A stretch of 64,000 bases of DNA from Aggregatibacter segnis. Its GTDB lineage: Bacteria; Pseudomonadota; Gammaproteobacteria; Enterobacterales; Pasteurellaceae. The DNA lies in assembly GCA_938021175.1 (NCBI GenBank), contig CALIHN010000006.1, forward strand, positions 62,206 through 126,205. The letters are read 5' to 3'. The notes beneath the pieces were generated by a model. The model made no database searches. It was given only the letters and a program-made list of their open reading frames with translations, and was not told the origin of the DNA. Shown here piece after piece: positions 49,329 through 60,439 of this stretch (position 1 is the stretch's first letter; each line of letters starts with the position of its first letter). The position numbers were made by a program, and so were the translations under genes.

Positions 49329-50663
49329 TTAATTGGCCTTCACCGCTTCCGCGATTTCTTCTGCACATTGCTGAGCCAATGCACCATCTTCACATTCCAC
49401 CATCACGCGAATTAACGGCTCAGTACCTGATTTACGCAGTAAAATACGTCCTTTGCCGCTCAAGCGTTTTTCAACCTCGGCAGCTACCGCTTTCACGGCA
49501 TCGCTTTCTAATGGGTTATTACCCCCGGCAAAACGCACGTTAATTAACACTTGTGGGAATAATTTGACTGCATCGGCTAATTCGTTCAGCGACAAATGAT
49601 GTTTTACCATTGCTGTCAACACGGCTAAAGAAGCGATAATGCCATCACCGGTCGTATTGCGATCAGCAATAATAATATGCCCCGAGTTTTCACCGCCTAA
49701 GCCCCAACCGCGTTCTTGCATTTGTTCCAACACATAACGGTCGCCCACATTGGCGCGCACAAACGGAATGGCTAATTGTTTTAAGGCAAGTTCAAGACTC
49801 ATATTGCTCATTAAGGTGCCTACGACACCGCCTTGCAAACGCCCTTCGCGCAAGGCTTCACGCGCAATAATAAATAATATTTGGTCACCATCGACTTTAT
49901 TCCCGAGATGATCCACCATAATTAAACGGTCGCCATCACCATCGTATGCCAACCCCACATCCGCTTTTACTTCTAACACTTTTTGTTGCAAGGCTTTGAT
50001 ATCCGTTGCACCGCATTTTTCGTTAATGTTCATGCCATTCGGATGGGTGCCGATTTCAATTACCTCTGCGCCTAATTCACGCATAACATTCGGCGCAATA
50101 TGGTAGGTTGCGCCATTGGCACAATCCACCACAATTTTATAACCTTCTAAACTCAAATGCGCCGGAAACGTACTTTTACAGAATTCAATATAACGGCCTG
50201 CCGCATCTTTAATTCGGCTGGCTCGCCCTAGTTCGGCAGATTCAACACAGTCCATCGGTTGCTCCAACATGGCTTCGATGGCTTCCTCCACATCATCGGG
50301 TAATTTCGTCCCTTGAGTAGAAAAGAATTTAATCCCATTGTCATAATACGGATTATGGGAAGCGGAAATCACGATACCGGCTTCCGCACGAAAAGTACGG
50401 GTTAAATAAGCAATCGCCGGGGTTGGCATTGGGCCGGTAAACGCAGCAGATAAACCGGCAGCTGCCAAACCGGCTTCAAGGGCAGACTCAAGCATATAGC
50501 CCGAAATTCGGGTATCTTTACCAATCAGCACGACGCGAGATCCTTGTGTCGCTAACACTTTACCTGCAGCCCAACCGAGTTTTAAAACAAAATCAGGGGT
50601 AATCGGATGGCTACCGACTTTGCCACGCACCCCATCCGTCCCAAAATATTTACGTTCAGCCAT
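49329..50663 (-). CDS. glmM: Phosphoglucosamine mutase
   Basis: 444 aa; active-site region [15 protein letters not shown]. Confidence 0.95.
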
Positions 50664-50756
50664 GTTTCAATTCCTTCTCAATAAAAATGTTATTTATTAT
50701 TTTATGCTATCGTTCTTCCGATAAGACAGCTAGCGTCCGACAGCACAACTACGTAT

Positions 50757-51584
50757 TTAAGCATGTTGCGTTGCCAGCCAAATTTTAAGTGCATCGGCCG
50801 TTTCACCGACATCATGCACGCGCAAAATACTGGTACCTTTCATCGCAGCAATTAATGCGGCAGCTACACTGCCTACTGTCCGTTGTTCTACAGGCTTATC
50901 CAATACGGCACCAATCATGGATTTACGGGAAATTCCTGCCAACACCGGATACCCTTGTTCACAGAAAACCGAAAATTGTTGTAACAAACAATAATTATGT
51001 TGCACGCTTTTGCCAAAACCAAAGCCCGGATCCCAGATCAGATTCTCTTTTTTGATTCCGGAAGCCAAACATTGTTCCGTTCTCTGCTGCATAAATTTTA
51101 AAACATCCGCCACCACATCATCGTAATGCGGATTGAGCTGCATTGTTCGCGGCTGCCCTTGCATATGCATAATGCACACCGGCAATGCCAAACGAACGGC
51201 AGTTTGTAATGCATCAGGTTCTTGTAAAGCGCGAATATCATTAATCAAATCCATGCCTACCTTAGCGGCCTCTTGCATCACCTGCGCTTTGGAGCTATCC
51301 ACCGAAATCCAGCAATCAAATCTCTTCCTCACCGCCTCAACTAAAGGAACAACCCGCTCAAGTTCCTCTTCTAACGTTACCTCTTCTGCCATCGGACGGG
51401 TTGACTCTCCCCCAATGTCAATAATCGATGCGCCTTGATTCAACATCGTTTCAACTTGGAACAACGCCTTGTCTAATTGGAAAAATTTACCGCTATCAGA
51501 AAAAGAATCCGGGGTGAAATTGAGGATCCCCATAATTTTAGGGGTAGAAAGATCGAGTGTTTTATTATTTGCTGTTAATTTCAT
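50757..51584 (-). CDS. folP: Dihydropteroate synthase
   Basis: 275 aa FolP-like (ILNFTPDSFSD, pterin-binding region). Confidence 0.93.
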   Translation of the reverse strand: MKLTANNKTLDLSTPKIMGILNFTPDSFSDSGKFFQLDKALFQVETMLNQGASIIDIGGESTRPMAEEVTLEEELERVVPLVEAVRKRFDCWISVDSSKAQVMQEAAKVGMDLINDIRALQEPDALQTAVRLALPVCIMHMQGQPRTMQLNPHYDDVVADVLKFMQQRTEQCLASGIKKENLIWDPGFGFGKSVQHNYCLLQQFSVFCEQGYPVLAGISRKSMIGAVLDKPVEQRTVGSVAAALIAAMKGTSILRVHDVGETADALKIWLATQHA

Positions 51585-51674
51585 AGATTATTCGCTTACC
51601 GTTTAGGTAAAAAGTGCGGTGTATTATAAGAGAATTTCTATAGCCTGCCAAAAAGAAAGCATAAAGAAAGGCGG

Positions 51675-52781
51675 TTATTTATCATCCTCTTCAGAAAATC
51701 CCCACAAGCTCATTTGCCCTGAATGATTTTCTTCCGGCAACATGACATGCAAACCAATTAAACGAATACTTCTCCCCTGTCTCCGTTGCCAAATTTGACT
51801 TAGCAGCTGTTGAAAATTTTCTCTCGAAAAAACTACCGCACTTTTCTCTAAGGTCGTCACCTGAAAATCTTCAAACTTGAGTTTCACACCGATTTTTCTC
51901 AACTGTGAAAAAGAAATACTGGCAACAGAACGTTGCACGCGTTTTACTAATTGAGCATATAACTCATCCAACACGGCAATTCCCTGTTCCAAGGCAGTAA
52001 TATTCGTCAATAATGTCGTTTCAACACCAATGGATTTACGCTCTCGATGAGGCTGAATCATTCGCTCATCAATACCATGGCTGTATGACCAAATTTGTTG
52101 CCCCATCTTACCCAATGCGTTTAACAAGAGATGCCGATCAATTTTTTTTACATCTGCACAACATGCTAAGCCCATTTGCAGTAATTTTTCCGAAGTCACT
52201 TTGCCCACACCTGGAATTTTTTTAAGTGGCAAATGAGCAACAAACTCATCGACATCTTTGGGCTCAATCACAAATTGCCCGTTCGGTTTATTTTGATCAG
52301 AGGCGATTTTGGCTAAAAATTTTAATGGTGCAACACCAGCAGAAGCGGTTAACCGAAGTTCATCCCAAATGGCTTGGCGAATATCTTGTGCGATCCAAGT
52401 TGCCGAACCGGCACATTTATCACAATCGGTTACATCTAAATAAGCCTCATCTAAAGAAAGCGGTTCAATGATTGTCGTATAACGCTGGAAAATTTGATGA
52501 ATTTGACGGGAAACCTCGCGATATAGAGGCATGTTAACCGGCAGTAAAACCAAATGAGGACACAATTTTAGCGCCTGTGCGGTTGGCATTGCACTGTGTA
52601 GCCCAAACTTGCGGGCAATGTAATTACATGTTGTCAACACGCCTCGTTGCTCTGCTCTTCCACCAACAGCAACAGGCTTATCCGCCAATGTAGGATTTTC
52701 ACGCATTTCAATGGAAGCGTAAAAACAGTCCATATCAATGTGAATAATTTTTCTAGGCTTGCAGGAAAGAGAATCAGGCAT
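51675..52781 (-). CDS. dinB: DNA polymerase IV
   Basis: KIIHIDMDCFYASIEMRENP catalytic N-terminus; 368 aa. Confidence 0.95.
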   Translation of the reverse strand: MPDSLSCKPRKIIHIDMDCFYASIEMRENPTLADKPVAVGGRAEQRGVLTTCNYIARKFGLHSAMPTAQALKLCPHLVLLPVNMPLYREVSRQIHQIFQRYTTIIEPLSLDEAYLDVTDCDKCAGSATWIAQDIRQAIWDELRLTASAGVAPLKFLAKIASDQNKPNGQFVIEPKDVDEFVAHLPLKKIPGVGKVTSEKLLQMGLACCADVKKIDRHLLLNALGKMGQQIWSYSHGIDERMIQPHRERKSIGVETTLLTNITALEQGIAVLDELYAQLVKRVQRSVASISFSQLRKIGVKLKFEDFQVTTLEKSAVVFSRENFQQLLSQIWQRRQGRSIRLIGLHVMLPEENHSGQMSLWGFSEEDDK

Positions 52782-52784
52782 AAA

Positions 52785-52825
52785 AAAGTGCGGTTAAAAA
52801 ACATGTTATTTTCTAACCGCACTTT
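52785..52825 (-). promoter_or_regulatory. Uptake-sequence hairpin with U-tract forming the dinB leader immediately 5' of the start codon
   Basis: 12-bp stem AAAGTGCGGTTA / TAACCGCACTTT with a 17-nt loop. On the minus strand UUUUUU runs directly into the AUG, and no SD is visible. Confidence 0.55.
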
Positions 52826-52834
52826 AGCATAAAT

Positions 52835-52854
52835 CACTGTATAAATAAACAGCA
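52835..52854. promoter_or_regulatory. LexA (SOS) box upstream of dinB, overlapping a putative -35/-10
   Basis: CACTGTATAAATAAACAGCA = CTGT-N8-ACAG. On the minus strand it overlaps TTGCGC-17-TATACA. Confidence 0.6.
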
Positions 52855-52855
52855 T

Positions 52856-53365
52856 TTAATGCGCAACATTAATTTGTTGTCCATCAGCAAAAACAACTTT
52901 CTCCGGAACAGCATAAATCATTAAATTTTCTTGCAAATTGCTAAACAAAGAACGATATTCTCCTGCTACTTTATTAAATGGAATGCGCAAATTAATATTA
53001 ATCTTATCTCCTGCTGCCATTGATTCTTCAAAATTTAACGGCACGCTTTGTAAATGAATAATTTGCTTTTCATATGTATACACGCTTAACCATTGGAAAA
53101 ATTTTATTGGTTTATCACTTTTGTTTTCAACAATAAATTTAACCAAGACATAAGCCTGATTATTGTCATCTACGGCAATATCTCGTCCTTCAAAACTCAC
53201 CACCACATAATCTTGAAAAGCCCCAAAAGAAATATCTTGTACGTTTTGACTTTTCTTATCAACTTGCTCAGTTTGACTTAGTTTTCCTTTAGAATTTTTT
53301 TCTACTGCAAAAGCCATATTGGTTGCAAATATGAAAGATAAAAAAAGGGAGATTAATAATTTCAT
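52856..53365 (-). CDS. Hypothetical secreted protein (signal peptide, AT-rich gene)
   Basis: N-terminal signal MKLLISLFLSFIFATNMAFA; no recognisable family; codon usage visibly AT-richer than its neighbours. Confidence 0.5.
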   Translation of the reverse strand: MKLLISLFLSFIFATNMAFAVEKNSKGKLSQTEQVDKKSQNVQDISFGAFQDYVVVSFEGRDIAVDDNNQAYVLVKFIVENKSDKPIKFFQWLSVYTYEKQIIHLQSVPLNFEESMAAGDKININLRIPFNKVAGEYRSLFSNLQENLMIYAVPEKVVFADGQQINVAH

Positions 53366-53488
53366 TCAAATACCATATCCATAGTTGGAGAATTAATAAG
53401 CTAAGAGAATATACCGCACGAAATAAAAAGTAAAAAGGATAGATAAATTTCTATCCTTTTTATTATTTCAATCGTGCAATTTTATCTT

Positions 53489-54727
53489 CTACTTTTTGTC
53501 TTCATCTGCAATGCAAGCTGCTGCAGTGAAAAGTACGTCAGTAGATGAGTTAAGTGCGGTTTCTGTAGAATCTTGTAAGATACCGATAATGAAACCAACC
53601 CCGATCATTTGTGCCGCAACATCATCAGAAATTCCAAATAGGCTACATGCTAATGGGATTAACAATAATGAACCACCAGCAACCCCAGAAGCACCACAAG
53701 CACATAAACTGGCAACAAGGCTTAACAAAATCGCGCTACCAAAAGAAACCTGAATACCTAACGTATGCACTGCTGCAAGCGTTAAAATAGTGATCGTAAT
53801 CGCAGCACCGGCCATATTAATAGTTGCGCCCAACGGAATAGAAACAGAATACGTTTCTTCATCTAAATTCAGGCGTTTCGCAAGATTGATATTCACCGGG
53901 ATATTCGCTGCAGAGCTACGGGTAAAGAATGCGGTTACGCCACTTTCACGCAAACAAGTCCAAACCAGTGGATACGGATTACGACGGATTTTCCAAAAAA
54001 CTAAAACCGGATTCACAACAAAAGCAACAAACAACATGGAGCCGACTAACACACTTAATAATTGAATATAGCCACCTAATGCCACCAAGCCTTTATCCGC
54101 TAATGTTTCAGAAACTAAACCGAATACACCGATTGGCGCAAATGAAATAACGACATAAACAATTTTGGAGACCGCTTCAGAAATATCGGAAATCACGGTT
54201 TTAGTTGCATCAGAAGCATGACGTAAAGCCAAACCTAAGCCGATAGACCAAGTTAATACGCCAATGAAATTCGCTCTAAATAATGCATTTAACGGGTTGT
54301 CCACCATATTGAAAATTAAATCCAACAATACGGTTCCAACACCTTTTGGTGCAGCGGAAATATCTTCTTTTACTGATAATGCAACTTCTGTTGGGAACAA
54401 GAATCCTGCAATAACAGCAACTAATGCAGCTAAGAAAGTACCGACCAAATACAACACAATGATGGATTTCATGCTGGTTTTGGAACCCACTTTCTTATTG
54501 GCAATTGCCGCCATAACCAAAACAAAGATCAATAATGGTGCAACAGCACGTAGTGAACGAACAAAAATTTGACCTAACACACCGACTTTTTCAGCCAAGT
54601 TAAAACCTAATGTCGGTTGTAACATAGGCGTAATGAGTGCGACCAAAATACCTAACACTAAACCAACAGCAATACGTTTGACCAAACTGCCTTGGAAGAA
54701 GAGTGAAATTAAACGAGACATATTCAT
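53489..54727 (-). CDS. sstT: Serine/threonine:Na+ symporter
   Basis: 412 aa DAACS-family transporter with an SstT-like N-terminus. Confidence 0.9.
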
Positions 54728-54973
54728 AATAAGTTAACGAGAGTTATGCAATCACTTGCGGTTGATCTTAGAATCAAAACTGATTCCCCTAGGGCGATAA
54801 AGATAGCGGAATTTTTTGATAAAATAAATACGAACATTTAACTTTCATTAAGTTTATAGAAATTTTGATAAATTTCTTTAGATTAAATTTAATAAACCTA
54901 ATACTTTTTTAGAAAACAATAATTCCTGCATTATCCTATCGAAAAAATAATTCAAAAATTTATTTTTCACCTG

Positions 54974-55025
54974 TTGACTTACTGGATATAAAAACAGTAT
55001 ATTATAACTGTATAAAAATACAGTT
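54974..55025 (+). promoter_or_regulatory. SOS promoter: -35 TTGACT, -10 TATATT, with two tandem LexA boxes
   Basis: Box 1 TACTGGATATAAAAACAGTA (54980-54999) and box 2 AACTGTATAAAAATACAGTT (55006-55025), both CTGx-N8-ACAG; followed by SD GAGGAG and the ATG at 55046. Confidence 0.7.
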
Positions 55026-55045
55026 TATTTTACTGAGGAGCAGAT

Positions 55046-55495
55046 ATGAACTACCACCACAACGTTGTTGCACAAAACGATCACATGTTTTCTTATCAAC
55101 CCATTCCTTTTTTTGAAGATATGAAACAAGAAAATCGTAGTTTCAATAAAAAACTTGATCTCAACTTGTACTGCATTAAACGTCCTCAACAGACATGTTT
55201 TATTCGAATGACAAATCCTAATATGCTCGCCTGGGGAATTGAAGAAGGTGATATGTTGGTCGTAGAAAATAATGAGGAATTATTTTTAGACGAATTGATC
55301 GTCCTTGAAGTAAACAATGAATTTCACGTATATGAGTTTATTGCACACAACAACGGGGAATTTATTTTCTTATCTTTGGACTCTAAAATGGAAAATATTA
55401 AAACAACCAATTGGCGGGAACTACCGATTGTCGGCACTGTAACCAATGTCATTCATCAACTACAACGTAAAAATACACTCCGGTTTGCCGCCTAA
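55046..55495 (+). CDS. UmuD/ImpA-like LexA-family (peptidase S24 fold) protein, apparently lacking the Ser/Lys catalytic dyad
   Basis: Aligns with the UmuD C-terminal domain (IDLN..., GISDGDLLIVD ~ GIEEGDMLVVE, GEF.VK ~ NEFHVY). The GDSM serine is NPNM and the VKKL lysine is VYEF. Confidence 0.6.
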   Translation: MNYHHNVVAQNDHMFSYQPIPFFEDMKQENRSFNKKLDLNLYCIKRPQQTCFIRMTNPNMLAWGIEEGDMLVVENNEELFLDELIVLEVNNEFHVYEFIAHNNGEFIFLSLDSKMENIKTTNWRELPIVGTVTNVIHQLQRKNTLRFAA

Positions 55496-55581
55496 TAAAA
55501 GAACTACCTGCATCTCAAATAAAAGAGCGGTCAAAAATGCTAACACTTTTGACCGCTCTTTTATGTTTCAGAAAAATAAAC

Positions 55582-56100
55582 TTAAAGCACTCGACGAGAT
55601 TGAGTATAAGTTCTTGCCCAGTAATCATCATTTAATGACTCAATAATGACACCACGACTTGTACTGGAATGCATAAATTTATCACCGCCAATATACACGC
55701 CAACATGCTTGTTTTTACGGAAGAAAACTAAATCACCAACTTTTAATTCACTTTTTTCAATTTTTGTGCCGACATGACGTTGTTCAGATGTAGAGCGAGG
55801 CAATGCTAAACCATAAGCTTTCAAGAAAGTCGTTTGCATAAAACCGGAACAATCAATGCCCCCTTTCGTCAGACCGCCTAAACGATAACGGGTACCTGCC
55901 CATTCTTGATATACGTTCGCAAGTTGTTTATCCATTACTTCAGAATATTGATGCGGTTTATTCGTTTTTAGTTGCGCATGAATTAATTGGTTTAACTGTT
56001 CTTGATCTTGTACTGAAGCAGCAACATTCTTTGTAGAATTTGAACATGCAGCCAAAACAAATAAAGGAACAATCATCAAAAATTTTTTAAACATAAACAT
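55582..56100 (-). CDS. NlpC/P60-family lipoprotein endopeptidase (Spr/MepS-like)
   Basis: Lipobox VLAAC; catalytic Cys region GIDCSGFMQ and C-terminal His. Confidence 0.8.
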   Translation of the reverse strand: MFMFKKFLMIVPLFVLAACSNSTKNVAASVQDQEQLNQLIHAQLKTNKPHQYSEVMDKQLANVYQEWAGTRYRLGGLTKGGIDCSGFMQTTFLKAYGLALPRSTSEQRHVGTKIEKSELKVGDLVFFRKNKHVGVYIGGDKFMHSSTSRGVIIESLNDDYWARTYTQSRRVL

Positions 56101-56217
56101 TAAATTTTTTTATTTAAATAGAGATTCATTGACAAAATTTCGCCGGATCCTAGCGTAAAATGAAGAAAAAATCCAGAAAAAGCTCAATTTAATTTCATAA
56201 AATTCATGTTTTATCGC

Positions 56218-56255
56218 ATATATAGTGCATAAAAGGAATTTTATGCACTATATAT
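56218..56255. repeat. Perfect 17-bp inverted repeat with 4-bp spacer (AT-rich palindrome)
   Basis: ATATATAGTGCATAAAA-GGAA-TTTTATGCACTATATAT; between the kdsA stop and the NlpC/P60 gene start. Confidence 0.7.
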
Positions 56256-56270
56256 TGAATATTGAAGAGA

Positions 56271-57134
<864 letters not shown>

Positions 57135-58034
57135 TTATTTATTTTCAGTTTGAGCCCAACAACCTAAGGTTACGCGCTCATTATTTCCGTAATCCCGTAA
57201 AGTTTCAATCGATGTCCAAAAATTCTCTTGGAAAATCGACCGCACTTTTTCCCCTTGTTGCCAACCGTGTTCCACCAACAGATAACCGCCTGTCCGCATA
57301 AATTTCGGCGCATTGGCGATAATATGACGTAAGTCCGCATAGCCTTCTTCTTCCGCCACTAACGCCGACAAGGGCTCAAAGCGTACATCTCCTTGGGTTA
57401 AATGTTCATCCTTTGCATCAATATAAGGCGGATTACTCACAATCAAATCAAATGTGCCTGTCACCTTGTCAAACCAATGACTTTGTAAAAAACAGACGTC
57501 TAACTGATTTTTTTCCGCATTGGATGTCGCCAACGCCACCACGTTCGGCATGACATCCACTCCGATAATTTCCGGTTGAATTTGCTGTTTTTGTGCAATG
57601 GGTTTCAGTTCAGAGGCTAACGCCAAGGCAATAGCGCCCGTACCGGTCCCCAGATCTAAAATACGAAAACGTTGGGAGTCTTGACCGCACTTTTGTAGCT
57701 TTTCAATGGTAATCGCTAGCGCTTTTTCCACCAGAATTTCGGTATCCGGACGCGGAATCAGCGTGCCTGCTGAGACATTTAATGGCAACGACCAAAACTC
57801 TTTTTCACCGAGAAGATAAGCGATGGGCTCACCTTGCAAACGACGAGATAAAAGTGCGGTCAGTTTTTCTTGTGTTTTTTCGTCCAACGCTGTCTCGCCA
57901 AAAGCCAAAATAAATGCACGCGATTTTTGTGTCACAAATTGCAATAACACTTGTGCATCGGTTTTACCATTTTCAGCGGGATTTGCTTGATTTAACGCTT
58001 GCGCGGCTTGTTGCAGCCATTGTTGGTAGTTCAT
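57135..58034 (-). CDS. prmC: Release-factor glutamine N5-methyltransferase
   Basis: NPPY motif (VSNPPYI) and SAM-binding DLGTGTGAIA. Confidence 0.9.
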   Translation of the reverse strand: MNYQQWLQQAAQALNQANPAENGKTDAQVLLQFVTQKSRAFILAFGETALDEKTQEKLTALLSRRLQGEPIAYLLGEKEFWSLPLNVSAGTLIPRPDTEILVEKALAITIEKLQKCGQDSQRFRILDLGTGTGAIALALASELKPIAQKQQIQPEIIGVDVMPNVVALATSNAEKNQLDVCFLQSHWFDKVTGTFDLIVSNPPYIDAKDEHLTQGDVRFEPLSALVAEEEGYADLRHIIANAPKFMRTGGYLLVEHGWQQGEKVRSIFQENFWTSIETLRDYGNNERVTLGCWAQTENK

Positions 58035-58079
58035 GTTTGTTCAATAAAAATGAACGAGCCGTTAAGCTCGTTCTCATCG

Positions 58080-59162
58080 TTAATTTTGTTCAGACAATGC
58101 CGCCAACTGATCCGCCTGATATTCGGTGATAATCGGCTGAATCAAGTCATCAATTTTACCGTTCATCACTTCATCTAAACGATAAATTGTCAGGTTAATG
58201 CGGTGATCTGTCACACGCCCTTGTGGGTAGTTGTAGGTACGAATCTTGTCAGAACGGTCACCGGAACCCAAAAGGTTACGACGGGTATCCGCTTGCTCTT
58301 GCGCCAATTTTTCCTGTTCTTGTTGTACTAAACGGGAAGCCAGCACGGACAAGGCTTTGGCTTTATTTTTATGTTGTGAACGCTCATCCTGACACTCCAC
58401 CACCATGCCGGTTGGAATATGCGTAATACGCACGGCAGAATCGGTTTTATTGATGTGCTGACCACCCGCACCGGAGGCACGATAGGTATCAATACGCAAA
58501 TCTGACGGGTTAATTTCCGGCATTTCTGATTCCGGCAATTCCGGCATCACCGCAACAGTACACGCAGAGGTATGAATACGCCCTTGTGACTCAGTTTTCG
58601 GTACACGTTGTACACGGTGACCGCCTGATTCAAATTTTAATTGACCATAGGCACCATCGCCGCTCACAAGGGCAATAATTTCTTTAAATCCGCCCTGCTC
58701 GCTTTCGTTTTCACTCAGCACTTCAATGCGCCAGCGCTTGGTTTCCGCATAACGGCTATACATACGGAAAAGATCGCCGGCAAAAATCCCGGCTTCATCA
58801 CCACCAGTACCGGCGCGGATTTCAAGGTAGCAGTTATATTCGTCGTTCGGATCTTTCGGTAGTAAGAGAATTTGTAAATGCTGCTCAACTTGTTCCAGTT
58901 CGGCTTTGGATTCTTCAATCTCCATTTGTGCCATTTCTTTCATTTCCGGATCGTCAAGCAGGAGCTGCGCTTCTTCTAAATTGGCATTGAGCTGATTCCA
59001 ACGGCTAAAACTTTTCACCACGTCTTCAAGTTGCGAATATTCTTTGGAATAGGCTCTGAATTTATCTTGATCACTAATGACAGAAGCATCGCCTAACAAC
59101 GCTTCAAGCTCTTCATAACGTTCTTTTAAGCTATCTAATTTATTGATAATAGAGGGTTTCAT
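58080..59162 (-). CDS. prfA: Peptide chain release factor 1
   Basis: GGQ motif ([16 protein letters not shown]) and PAT-type recognition; 360 aa. Confidence 0.95.
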
Positions 59163-59299
59163 TCTTTAACCTTCGAAGGAAAATGGAAAGGGAAATAAAA
59201 AAATCGGGGCATTCTAGCACAGAATAGAAATGTTATTGAAGTTTAGGTAATAAAAAAGGCTTTCGAGCTATCTCAAAAGCCTTTCTCATCTTATTTAAA

Positions 59300-59755
59300 T
59301 TAAAGTGCGGAAACATTCAAACGTGAACCACCAACAATACGCACACGCGCACCTGGCACGAGATTCGCTTCGGCTTTTTGCACAACAACAATTTCTTTAC
59401 CGTCATCTTTGCGAATGACCATTTCAATGGCGTTAACTTGGCTTGCTTTTTCTTCAACTTTGCTGCCGACAACAGCACCGGCAACCGCCCCAACCGCGGT
59501 AGCTAACGCCCTGCCTGTGCCACCACCGATCGCTGAACCGGCAATACCGCCAATCGCACCACCACCGATCGTACCAACCACACCTTGATTATCCGATTGA
59601 ATTTTCACCGGGCGGGTAGAAACAATGGTGCCGTAACTAATCGAACGGGCTTCTTTCGCTTGAGCGCCCGAATAGACGTTACCGCCATAAATATCTTCAT
59701 TGGCACAGCCAACAAGAGTTAAGCTTATTAAAATAGCTAATGCGATCTTTTTCAT
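59300..59755 (-). CDS. pcp: Outer-membrane lipoprotein, glycine-zipper (SlyB/Pcp, 'PAL cross-reacting protein') family
   Basis: Lipobox LVGC; Gly-zipper GGGAIGGIAGSAIGGG; close to Haemophilus Pcp. Confidence 0.85.
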   Translation of the reverse strand: MKKIALAILISLTLVGCANEDIYGGNVYSGAQAKEARSISYGTIVSTRPVKIQSDNQGVVGTIGGGAIGGIAGSAIGGGTGRALATAVGAVAGAVVGSKVEEKASQVNAIEMVIRKDDGKEIVVVQKAEANLVPGARVRIVGGSRLNVSAL

Positions 59756-59851
59756 AAATGCTCCTTAAACACCAAATTAACCTTTTATTTTGCTTATTTA
59801 TTCTTTGATAAATAAACGATGAATCTGATTTTATTGAACCGCTTTATATCA

Positions 59852-60439
59852 TCAAACCGCGCTTACAATTTGCTTGATGCTGTATGGGTGGAACTTGATA
59901 CAAGTAGGATTCTGCGTTTTATCCAAAAAGCTTACTGCAACAGACAAATTGAGCAGTGTTTCACCACACCCTTTCGGTTCGCTCATTTTGACTGTAAAAC
60001 GCTCAGGTTGGTTCCACAAGAATGTATTTTTTATTCTTGCTAACCATTCTGCTGAGGTTTCATTGGGTAAAAATGGAACAACCACCTCAATATGCTCCCA
60101 AGTTTCTTGTGGATAATGTTTATCTTTTGGGAAAGGTAATTCCACCACATCAATCTCTTGTTGCGCCAAACGCAAAGGCTCATGTAACTGAATCAAATAA
60201 ATCACTCTGCCGTTAATCAGGTTATCGCTCAACACCGAGCCATACGCTAACAATCGGGTTAACCACGCATTTGCCATTTGCTCGGTATTCACCCGCAAAG
60301 AAAGGTGATCAATTTCATATTGGTTTAAATCTAAATTGATCTGTTGTGCCAATGCCTGAATTTTTTGCTCAAAATCCTGAAAGTCGGCAAAAAGTGCGGT
60401 CTGTTTTTCAAACATTTTATGGGGAAAGCGAAACGACAT
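59852..60439 (-). CDS. yecM: YecM-family (VOC-fold) protein
   Basis: Similar to E. coli YecM, which is likewise adjacent to argS. Confidence 0.8.
   Translation of the reverse strand: MSFRFPHKMFEKQTALFADFQDFEQKIQALAQQINLDLNQYEIDHLSLRVNTEQMANAWLTRLLAYGSVLSDNLINGRVIYLIQLHEPLRLAQQEIDVVELPFPKDKHYPQETWEHIEVVVPFLPNETSAEWLARIKNTFLWNQPERFTVKMSEPKGCGETLLNLSVAVSFLDKTQNPTCIKFHPYSIKQIVSAV

What the first reader, a model, noticed from the sequence alone, without database searches (positions are those of the whole stretch)
54974..55495. Doubly LexA-boxed promoter driving a UmuD/ImpA-like protein that appears catalytically dead
Two near-consensus SOS boxes (TACTGGATATAAAAACAGTA and AACTGTATAAAAATACAGTT) overlap a TTGACT/TATATT promoter 20-70 bp upstream of a 149-aa ORF. 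By my alignment the ORF has the S24 (LexA/UmuD C-terminal) fold but NPNM in place of GDSM (no nucleophilic Ser) and VYEF in place of VKKL (no general-base Lys). Such a protein could not autocleave and could act as a constitutive UmuD'-like or decoy partner. No umuC is nearby, but the SOS-regulated translesion polymerase dinB lies 2.3 kb away, and E. coli UmuD is known to bind and modulate DinB.
Basis: partly seen in the sequence, partly recalled or inferred. Interest (0 to 1): 0.6.

Follow-up and report, generated by a model that had tools for sequence, protein, structure and literature searches.

The report
SOS-controlled, catalytically dead UmuD homologue (impA)
This is impA of Aggregatibacter segnis, a DNA-damage-inducible gene behind two LexA operators whose product has the fold of the self-cleaving mutagenesis protein UmuD but has lost the catalytic residues and the cleavage site in every family member examined, so it must act by binding partners rather than by cutting itself.

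Summary
A 149-aa ORF (55046-55495, +) follows a TTGACT-18-TATATT promoter overlapped by two LexA boxes (54980-54999, 55006-55025). The only other such box in the 64 kb lies upstream of dinB.

The protein matches Peptidase_S24 (E 2e-15), and UmuD is its best solved relative. Asn59 replaces the Ser60 nucleophile, Tyr96 replaces the Lys97 base, and the Cys-Gly cleavage site is deleted.

The window comes from Aggregatibacter segnis. The gene is the orthologue of Haemophilus influenzae impA, an experimentally SOS-induced gene with the same dead motifs. All 82 related loci analysed carry a LexA box, and 77 carry the tandem pair. dN/dS is 0.01-0.1, so this is a functional pseudoprotease.

No umuC lies nearby in any locus. 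The dinB proximity is confined to Aggregatibacter; the conserved neighbour is sstT.

The gene keeps a conserved N-terminal arm, so it resembles uncleaved UmuD2, not UmuD'. My best reading is inferred, not shown: a stoichiometric SOS regulator of DinB and/or the replisome.

The gene and its SOS control were already known. The family-wide loss of catalysis appears in no paper I could search.

The parts
54974..54979 (+). -35 hexamer TTGACT of the impA promoter
   Evidence: Promoter scan gives TTGACT-18 nt-TATATT, 10 of 12 matches. TTGAC(A/T) directly abutting box 1 is conserved across genera.
54980..54999 (+). LexA (SOS) box 1, TACTGGATATAAAAACAGTA. It fills the promoter spacer and overlaps the -10 hexamer.
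   Evidence: One mismatch to TACTGTATATAAAAACAGTA. Chance expectation is 0.04 per window. A box at this position is conserved in orthologous loci.
54998..55003 (+). -10 hexamer TATATT
   Evidence: TATAT(T) is conserved between the two boxes in other genera.
55006..55025 (+). LexA (SOS) box 2, AACTGTATAAAAATACAGTT. It covers the expected transcription start region.
   Evidence: Exact CTGT-N8-ACAG, one of only two in the 64 kb. A tandem pair 24-28 bp apart is present in 77 of 82 related loci.
55036..55041 (+). Shine-Dalgarno sequence GAGGAG, 4 nt before the ATG
   Evidence: Read directly from the sequence.
55046..55495 (+). impA coding sequence, 149 aa: a UmuD-derived S24-fold pseudoprotease
   Evidence: ORF list. 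Pfam PF00717, E 2e-15. Aligns to UmuD chains 1ay9, 1umu and 8gmt. AlphaFold2 core pLDDT about 90, and Foldseek top hits are UmuD'. 99-100% identical to A. segnis proteins. dN/dS 0.01-0.1.
55088..55120 (+). Conserved N-terminal arm motif F15-S-Y-x-P-(I/M)-P-F-F-x-D25. It aligns with UmuD 14-TFPLFSD-20, and the cleavage-site segment that should follow it is missing.
   Evidence: S16, Y17, P19, P21 and D25 are at least 90% conserved in 16 Pasteurellaceae sequences. There is a 6-residue gap opposite UmuD C24-G25-F-P-S-P. The arm has low pLDDT, so it is probably flexible.
55220..55222 (+). Codon AAT for Asn59, at the position of the UmuD Ser60 nucleophile
   Evidence: The 19 aligned clade members carry N, D, H or G here and never Ser.
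55331..55333 (+). Codon TAT for Tyr96, at the position of the UmuD Lys97 general base
   Evidence: Tyr or Phe across the clade.
55519..55564 (.). Hairpin followed by a U-run: a probable bidirectional intrinsic terminator shared by impA (+) and the convergent NlpC/P60 gene (-)
   Evidence: RNA fold -26.8 kcal/mol, z = -7.2, and 0 of 200 shuffles fold as well. The simple terminator scan missed it; the model's terminal loop is only 4 nt, so the scan's loop limit does not explain the miss.
52835..52854 (-). Context: the only other SOS box in the window, upstream of dinB (51675-52781, minus strand), the candidate partner polymerase
   Evidence: Exact CTGT-N8-ACAG at 52837-52852 and the relaxed scan. 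The dinB product is 55% identical to E. coli DinB.

Best explanation
The locus is impA of Aggregatibacter segnis. It is a chromosomal, vertically inherited SOS gene of the Pasteurellaceae.

Shown:
- A near-consensus sigma-70 promoter is overlapped by two LexA operators. One fills the -35/-10 spacer and the other covers the start site, so the gene should be tightly repressed and released only when LexA is cleaved after DNA damage.
- The product is a UmuD-derived S24-fold protein. It has lost the Ser nucleophile (now Asn59), the Lys general base (now Tyr96) and the Cys/Ala-Gly cleavage site (a 6-residue deletion).
- It keeps the DLN motif that is invariant with UmuD and a conserved N-terminal arm, and it evolves under strong purifying selection.

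Inferred:
- It cannot autocleave and is not the activatable subunit of a Pol V, because no umuC is linked to it.
- It acts stoichiometrically, as a natural equivalent of permanently uncleaved UmuD2.
- After SOS induction it binds DinB (Pol IV, the only Y-family polymerase in the window; this window's copy also carries a LexA box) and/or replisome parts such as the beta clamp and Pol III alpha. This would restrain DinB's frameshift-prone synthesis or slow replication while accurate repair proceeds.
- Because it cannot be cleaved, this control would end through re-repression by LexA and proteolytic turnover, not through RecA*-mediated conversion.
For: Anatomy and chance:
- The promoter, boxes and ORF are as described.
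- Only 3 SOS boxes occur in 64 kb, against 0.2 expected.

Homology and fold:
- Pfam Peptidase_S24, 57 bits.
- UmuD is the best solved relative by sequence and by fold.

Dead site:
- Direct alignments show it.
- An exhaustive search of 1.8 billion representatives returned 150 listed hits. The closest full-length ones all lack Ser and Lys, and among about 137 aligned proteins 102 keep both.

Functional gene:
- dN/dS is 0.014-0.107 in the eight pairs where synonymous sites were not saturated; one further pair was saturated.
- 162 species genomes encode a relative, and all 80 loci kept for analysis are Pasteurellaceae.
- sstT synteny holds in 76 of 80 loci, and also for a 39-42%-identical member.

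SOS control:
- 82 of 82 loci have at least one box and 77 have the tandem pair.
- Distant members also carry perfect boxes.
[quoted passage not shown] 2005 (PMC6957337).

Partner hypothesis:
- In E. coli a noncleavable UmuD fully suppresses DinB -1 frameshifts, and UmuD2 disrupts the alpha-beta clamp contact (review PMC6590174).
- DinB is widespread in the same genera.
- A. segnis DinB keeps C66, P166, F172 and L176, the reported UmuD-contact residues.

No umuC lies in the window or within 6 kb of impA in 83 loci.
Against: - No interaction has been tested, so the partner is inferred by analogy with E. coli UmuD.
- dinB linkage is not conserved, being confined to Aggregatibacter.
- UmuD D91, which I recall as a DinB-contact residue (memory of Godoy et al. 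2007, not verified here), is Asn here and variable across the clade.
- Conservation of four DinB residues at 55% overall identity is weak evidence.
- Whole-genome presence or absence of umuC in A. segnis was not tested.
- I did not establish whether every impA-bearing genome has dinB.
- SOS induction is documented for H. influenzae, not for A. segnis.
Confidence: 0.5

Rival explanations
1. RecA* filament binder that modulates the SOS response itself. The uncleavable S24 domain occupies the RecA-filament groove used by LexA and UmuD, and so slows LexA cleavage. This would be damage-induced negative feedback, similar in effect to DinI or RecX.
For: UmuD and the LexA C-terminal domain bound to RecA filaments are among the closest structural matches (8gmt, 8gms, 8trg). 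The gene is SOS-induced, and its product could not be consumed by cleavage.
Against: The segment that carries the cleavage site is deleted; whether that segment contributes to RecA binding is my assumption, not something a tool result here shows. No residue-level test of the RecA interface was possible. The best sequence match is to UmuD, not LexA (61 against 21 bits).
Confidence: 0.15
2. Accessory subunit of a Pol V-like polymerase whose UmuC-like catalytic subunit is encoded elsewhere in the genome or on a mobile element. ImpA would work without needing cleavage, as phage P1 HumD does.
For: The best family match is the Pol V autoproteolytic subunit (NF007621, 61 bits), with a weaker match to HumD.
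Against: No umuC lies in the 64-kb window or within 6 kb in 83 loci. A published gene table lists H. influenzae with dinB and lexA but without umuC or umuD (PMC2734928). The protein keeps a full N-terminal arm, the form that is inactive for translesion synthesis in E. coli (established knowledge). It scores far below the family cut-off of 110 bits.
Confidence: 0.07
3. Dominant-negative partner of LexA. The protein heterodimerises with the LexA C-terminal domain, prevents LexA from binding DNA as a dimer, and so prolongs SOS expression.
For: It shares the fold of LexA C-terminal domains. It lacks any DNA-binding domain despite the 'LexA family transcriptional regulator' annotation.
Against: Sequence affinity is to UmuD, not LexA. 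To my knowledge no UmuD-LexA heterodimer is known. This idea is pure speculation.
Confidence: 0.05
4. Still an active self-cleaving protease that uses non-canonical residues, or else a decaying relic with no function.
For: It is annotated 'S24 family peptidase'.
Against: No Ser, Thr or Cys sits at the nucleophile position and no Lys at the base position in any clade member, and the cleavage site is deleted. The relic idea is contradicted by dN/dS of 0.01-0.1, by intact ORFs in the 80 loci kept from 162 species genomes with a relative, and by the conserved operators.
Confidence: 0.03

Closest known systems
Haemophilus influenzae ImpA (orthologue)
   Same: 64% identity over 96% of the length, with the same TNPNM and HVYEF motifs. 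The closest sequenced relatives of H. influenzae among the fetched loci (H. haemolyticus, H. seminalis) also have sstT as the divergent neighbour and tandem LexA boxes upstream; the H. influenzae locus itself was not among those fetched. H. influenzae impA is reported as LexA-dependent and damage-induced (Sweetman et al. 2005, cited in PMC6957337).
   Different: A different genus. In the H. haemolyticus-group loci dinB is not adjacent. No function has been assigned there either.
E. coli UmuD, and the engineered noncleavable variants S60A and K97A
   Same: Same S24 fold. Shares the DLN motif that is invariant with UmuD, an N-terminal arm with an FPLF-like motif, and a single-domain size of about 140-150 aa. 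Its gene is LexA-repressed. Noncleavable UmuD still controls DinB fidelity, and UmuD2 acts on the replisome (PMC6590174).
   Different: About 22% identity. Natural loss of Ser60, Lys97 and the C24-G25 site. No umuC partner gene. Two operators are present here; my recollection, not checked here, is that E. coli umuDC has one. It scores below the NCBIfam cut-off (61 against 110 bits).
Plasmid-borne ImpA (TP110 impCAB) and MucA (pKM101), the source of the gene name
   Same: UmuD-family S24 proteins whose genes are under SOS control (established knowledge).
   Different: From my own knowledge: they are encoded with a UmuC-type polymerase (ImpB, MucB) and are cleaved to an active form. This protein has neither property.
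Phage P1 HumD
   Same: A UmuD relative that works without self-processing. There is a weak profile match (NF051876, 28.6 bits).
   Different: From my own knowledge, HumD is a pre-truncated UmuD' analogue that serves UmuC. ImpA keeps the N-terminal arm and has no UmuC.
Acinetobacter UmuDAb
   Same: A UmuD homologue recruited to a regulatory role rather than a polymerase-subunit role (established knowledge).
   Different: From my own knowledge, UmuDAb is longer, binds DNA as a repressor and still self-cleaves. ImpA has no DNA-binding region and cannot cleave.
Non-catalytic members of the S24/S26 fold: phage 186 CI C-terminal domain and Streptococcus pyogenes SipA
   Same: The same fold, reused purely for protein-protein contacts after loss of catalysis. 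Both appear among the fold matches (2fjr, 2fkd and 4n31).
   Different: They are remote in sequence (10-15% identity). By their PDB descriptions they serve unrelated roles: one is part of a phage repressor and the other is required for pilus polymerisation.

Membership tests
Peptidase S24 (LexA/UmuD) fold family, Pfam PF00717 | Profile match above the curated gathering score | tested here: met
   57 bits against a cut-off of 23.3, E 2e-15, covering residues 31-132.
Peptidase S24 (LexA/UmuD) fold family, Pfam PF00717 | The beta-rich catalytic-core fold of UmuD' and the LexA C-terminal domain | tested here: met
   AlphaFold2 model with core pLDDT of about 86-94. The Foldseek top hits are 1ay9 and 1umu (UmuD'), 8gmt (UmuD-RecA) and LexA C-terminal domains, probability 1.00.
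Peptidase S24 as an active enzyme | Ser nucleophile in the G-x-S-M motif | tested here: not met
   Asn59 aligns with UmuD Ser60. The 19 aligned clade members carry N, D, H or G here.
Peptidase S24 as an active enzyme | Lys general base (UmuD Lys97) | tested here: not met
   Tyr96 sits at this position. Tyr or Phe throughout the clade.
Peptidase S24 as an active enzyme | Ala/Cys-Gly scissile bond in the N-terminal segment | tested here: not met
   A 6-residue gap lies opposite UmuD C24-G25-F-P-S-P. Active relatives show AAGFPSPA at this position.
UmuD, autoproteolytic subunit of DNA polymerase V (NCBIfam NF007621) | Score at or above the curated family cut-off | tested here: not met
   61 bits against a cut-off of 110.
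UmuD, autoproteolytic subunit of DNA polymerase V (NCBIfam NF007621) | Encoded in an operon with a UmuC-type Y-family polymerase | tested here: not met
   tblastn with E. coli UmuC finds only dinB, in the window and in Aggregatibacter loci. Nothing lies within 6 kb of impA in the other loci. Whole genomes were not searched.
UmuD, autoproteolytic subunit of DNA polymerase V (NCBIfam NF007621) | RecA*-stimulated conversion to UmuD' | not testable with these tools
   The sequence predicts it is impossible. A cleavage assay with RecA*/ssDNA or at high pH is needed.
LexA (SOS) regulon of Gammaproteobacteria | CTGT-N8-ACAG operator overlapping the promoter | tested here: met
   There are two boxes, one exact and one with a single core mismatch. 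The excess over chance is shown. Boxes are conserved in 82 of 82 loci.
LexA (SOS) regulon of Gammaproteobacteria | LexA-dependent induction by DNA damage | not testable with these tools
   Reported for the H. influenzae orthologue (Sweetman et al. 2005, via PMC6957337). Not measured in A. segnis.
LexA family transcriptional regulator (the database annotation of the orthologues) | N-terminal winged-helix DNA-binding domain | tested here: not met
   Only the S24 domain is detected, and the N-terminal 30 residues match no domain. The LexA model matches only its C-terminal part, positions 106-202, at 21 bits against a cut-off of 111.
Type VI secretion protein ImpA (the database annotation of some orthologues) | Homology to the T6SS ImpA/TssA family | tested here: not met
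   No such Pfam or NCBIfam match. The label is a gene-name collision.

The most novel reading that the evidence does not exclude
The Pasteurellaceae have kept only the non-proteolytic half of UmuD biology. Under this reading ImpA is a dedicated, SOS-induced pseudoprotease that does the job proposed for full-length UmuD2 in E. coli: it restrains DinB frameshifting and/or brakes the replisome. It does so in a lineage with no Pol V, and it has evolved to be permanently uncleavable. That would be a natural separation-of-function allele. It would show that the UmuD2 'checkpoint/fidelity' role is selectable on its own.
Probability: 0.3. Interest if true: 0.65.

Novelty: new variant of a known kind. 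Interest (0 to 1): 0.5.

Why it matters
In E. coli the proposed non-mutagenic roles of uncleaved UmuD2 are a DNA-damage checkpoint and control of DinB fidelity. They are hard to separate from UmuD's role as the precursor of the Pol V subunit.

ImpA offers a cleaner case. It is a naturally uncleavable UmuD relative with no linked UmuC gene, it is conserved under strong purifying selection, and every locus examined carries a LexA operator.

H. influenzae is naturally transformable and genetically tractable, so a simple deletion could test whether those roles are real and what the partners are.

The finding also corrects widespread misannotation. Orthologues are labelled 'S24 family peptidase', 'LexA family transcriptional regulator' or 'type VI secretion protein ImpA'.

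It bears, too, on mutagenesis and antibiotic-induced SOS responses in oral and respiratory Pasteurellaceae.

Tried and rejected
- Gene linkage with dinB as evidence of function: rejected. tblastn of the window's neighbouring proteins against 80 loci shows dinB near impA only in Aggregatibacter (6 loci), whereas sstT is the conserved neighbour.
- A hidden umuC: tblastn with E. coli UmuC and with the window's own DinB finds no second Y-family polymerase in the window or in the flanks of 83 loci.
- A structured RNA in the region: Rfam at gathering thresholds over 50000-60000 gives nothing.
- Literature on the dead active site: ten full-text searches found no paper linking impA, Haemophilus and UmuD. 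Only one held paper names impA as an SOS gene. Sweetman 2005, Gmuender 2001 and Godoy 2007 are not held.
- My recollection that H. influenzae lacks all translesion polymerases: not used. A published table and named DinB proteins from H. influenzae contradict it, at least for some strains.
- A conserved Cys43/Cys51/His137 metal site: considered and dropped. Cys51 and Cys43 are replaced in the distant clade members.
- The default terminator scan found none. Folding the 3' region showed a strong hairpin; the model's terminal loop is only 4 nt, so why the scan missed it is not established.

Full report
**What is there**

The region reads as a complete, compact transcription unit.
- A -35 hexamer TTGACT (54974-54979) and a -10 hexamer TATATT (54998-55003) are separated by 18 nt and match 10 of 12 consensus positions.
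- The spacer is filled by TACTGGATATAAAAACAGTA (54980-54999), which runs into the -10 hexamer.
- Two bases after the -10 hexamer comes AACTGTATAAAAATACAGTT (55006-55025).
- GAGGAG (55036-55041) precedes the ATG at 55046.
- The ORF ends at 55495 and encodes 149 aa.
- A strong hairpin at 55519-55564 with a U-run lies between this gene and the convergent NlpC/P60 gene. It folds at -26.8 kcal/mol with z = -7.2.

Box 2 is one of only two exact CTGT-N8-ACAG sites in the 64 kb. Box 1 has a single core mismatch; chance expectation for such a match is 0.04 per window. A relaxed scan finds just three SOS-like boxes in the window: these two and one upstream of dinB. Shuffles gave a mean of 0.2 and a maximum of 1.

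**The protein**

It matches Pfam Peptidase_S24 at 57 bits, against a cut-off of 23.3. The closest curated family is the Pol V autoproteolytic subunit, but at 61 bits it is well below the 110-bit cut-off. LexA scores only 21 bits, and only over its C-terminal part.

Against all solved structures the best sequence matches are E. coli UmuD and UmuD', with E about 1e-6. The printed alignment puts query NPNM opposite GDSM and HVYEF opposite TVKKL. The UmuD sequence I used is identical to that of MG1655.
- Asn59 therefore replaces the Ser60 nucleophile.
- Tyr96 replaces the Lys97 general base.
- The multiple alignment also shows a 6-residue gap exactly opposite UmuD's C24-G25-F-P-S-P. The scissile site is gone as well.

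An AlphaFold2 model has a confident core (residues 50-140, pLDDT about 86-94) and a low-confidence N-terminal 45 residues. Its best fold matches are UmuD', UmuD on a RecA filament, and LexA C-terminal domains.

**Origin and relatives**

The window is Aggregatibacter segnis. The locus is 100% identical at protein level to strain HK_296, and there are 99%-identical named proteins. In the species-level genome collection, 162 genomes encode a relative, and the best 80 are all Pasteurellaceae: Aggregatibacter, Pasteurella, Rodentibacter, Haemophilus, Lonepinella, Mesocricetibacter, Caviibacterium and Bisgaard taxa.

An exhaustive HMMER pass over 1.84 billion representative proteins shows how small and isolated the clade is. 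Only 21 representatives reach E <= 1e-10. The full-length ones at 40-59% identity all lack the Ser, and all but one have Tyr at the Lys position. They include proteins from Haemophilus paracuniculus and a Plesiomonas MAG. Across all the hits aligned, 102 of about 137 keep both Ser and Lys.

The H. influenzae protein called ImpA is 64% identical to this one and has the same TNPNM and HVYEF motifs.

**Is it a working gene?**

Yes. Pairwise dN/dS for impA ranges from 0.014 to 0.107 in the eight species and strain pairs where synonymous sites were not saturated; one further pair was saturated. Its position is stable: sstT is the divergent upstream neighbour in 76 of 80 loci, and even for a metagenomic member about 40% identical to this protein.

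Within the N-terminal arm, S16, Y17, P19, P21 and D25 are at least 90% conserved. This motif aligns with UmuD's 14-TFPLFSD-20. From memory, that region of UmuD is implicated in beta-clamp and Lon interactions; I did not test this here.

**Regulation**

The promoter architecture is conserved across genera: TTGAC(A/T), then box 1, then TATAT, then box 2. All 82 analysable loci have at least one box with one core mismatch or fewer. Forty-four have a perfect box, and 77 have a tandem pair 24-28 bp apart. The distant metagenomic member has two perfect boxes and the Plesiomonas gene has one.

Experimental support comes from H. influenzae. There impA is listed with lexA, recA, recN, recX and ruvA as the SOS-response genes, citing Sweetman, Moxon and Bayliss 2005 (PMC6957337). 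I could not read that paper.

**The dinB argument**

dinB (51675-52781, minus strand; 55% identical to E. coli DinB) does lie 2.27 kb away and has its own exact LexA box. That proximity, however, is peculiar to Aggregatibacter, occurring in 6 of 80 loci. It carries no weight as evidence of function.

No UmuC-type polymerase is in the window or within 6 kb of impA in any fetched locus. A published gene table lists H. influenzae with lexA and dinB but without umuC, umuD or polB (PMC2734928).

Independently of linkage, three points bear on a DinB link:
- DinB is widespread in the same family (named H. influenzae DinB).
- A. segnis DinB retains C66, P166, F172 and L176. These are the residues reported to contact UmuD (PMC4564189, citing Godoy et al. 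2007). At 55% overall identity this is only weak support.
- Conversely UmuD D91, which I recall as a DinB-contact residue, is not conserved in ImpA.

**How it most likely works**

Shown: tight LexA control by two operators, an S24/UmuD fold, loss of all three elements needed for self-cleavage, and strong purifying selection.

Inferred: the protein works by binding, as a natural counterpart of permanently uncleaved UmuD2. In E. coli a noncleavable UmuD is fully proficient in suppressing DinB-dependent -1 frameshifts, and UmuD2 disrupts the Pol III alpha-beta clamp contact (PMC6590174).

I therefore favour an SOS-induced modulator of DinB and/or the replisome. I put about 0.9 on the anatomy and pseudoprotease status, and about 0.35 on that specific partner set.

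Rivals are a RecA*-groove competitor giving SOS feedback, a cleavage-independent subunit for an unlinked UmuC, a LexA dominant-negative, and a non-canonical protease or a relic. The last is contradicted by the alignments and by dN/dS.

**Novelty**

The gene, its name and its SOS induction are already known. The family-wide loss of the catalytic dyad and the cleavage site does not appear in any paper I could search. Neither do the purifying selection on such a protein or the conservation of the double operator.

Databases label the orthologues 'S24 family peptidase', 'LexA family transcriptional regulator' or, through a name collision, 'type VI secretion protein ImpA'. I class it as a new variant of a known kind, of moderate interest. 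Its main value is as a natural separation-of-function form of UmuD in a genetically tractable group.

Noticed in passing
window 52781-52858 (minus strand): The layout upstream of dinB is odd. The stop codon of the preceding lipoprotein-like gene is followed at once by the LexA box. Next comes an inverted pair of uptake signal sequences (52786-52794 and 52816-52824) that forms a hairpin with a T-run. This hairpin abuts the dinB ATG, and no obvious Shine-Dalgarno sequence is visible. A terminator-like hairpin therefore sits between the operator and the start codon.
   Followed up: partly
whole window: There are 58 exact copies of the Hin-type uptake signal sequence core AAGTGCGGT in 64 kb, against 0.45 expected. 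Several occur as closely spaced inverted pairs. This fits a naturally competent member of the Pasteurellaceae.
   Followed up: no
window 55519-55564: The terminator hairpin shared by impA and the NlpC/P60 gene is built from an inverted pair of near-USS sequences (AAGAGCGGT, one mismatch from the USS core).
   Followed up: no
L081 5001-5438 (Plesiomonas sp. MAG, protein P0138): This is a relative from outside the Pasteurellaceae, in a different context (serS, then the gene, then nth-rnf), with a single perfect LexA box. It looks like an intermediate state: it still has an L-G dipeptide opposite the cleavage site and GSGM opposite GDSM, but has Tyr at the Lys position.
   Followed up: partly
orthologues in public databases: Orthologues are variously annotated as 'type VI secretion protein ImpA', 'LexA family transcriptional regulator' and 'S24 family peptidase'. 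None fits a 149-aa protein with no DNA-binding domain, no T6SS homology and no catalytic dyad.
   Followed up: yes
representative hits, tallied: About 20 other UmuD-like representatives show non-Ser/Lys pairs at the catalytic columns, for example Ala/Arg in 6 and Ser/Arg in 10. These could be alignment slips or further independent losses of catalysis. Separately, P0148, a 2338-aa protein, matches query residues 20-51 in five separate stretches.
   Followed up: no
window 52856-53365 (minus strand): A 169-aa ORF with a signal-peptide-like N-terminus lies between dinB and sstT. It is only 53-54% identical in other Aggregatibacter species and was not detected outside the genus among the fetched loci.
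   Followed up: no
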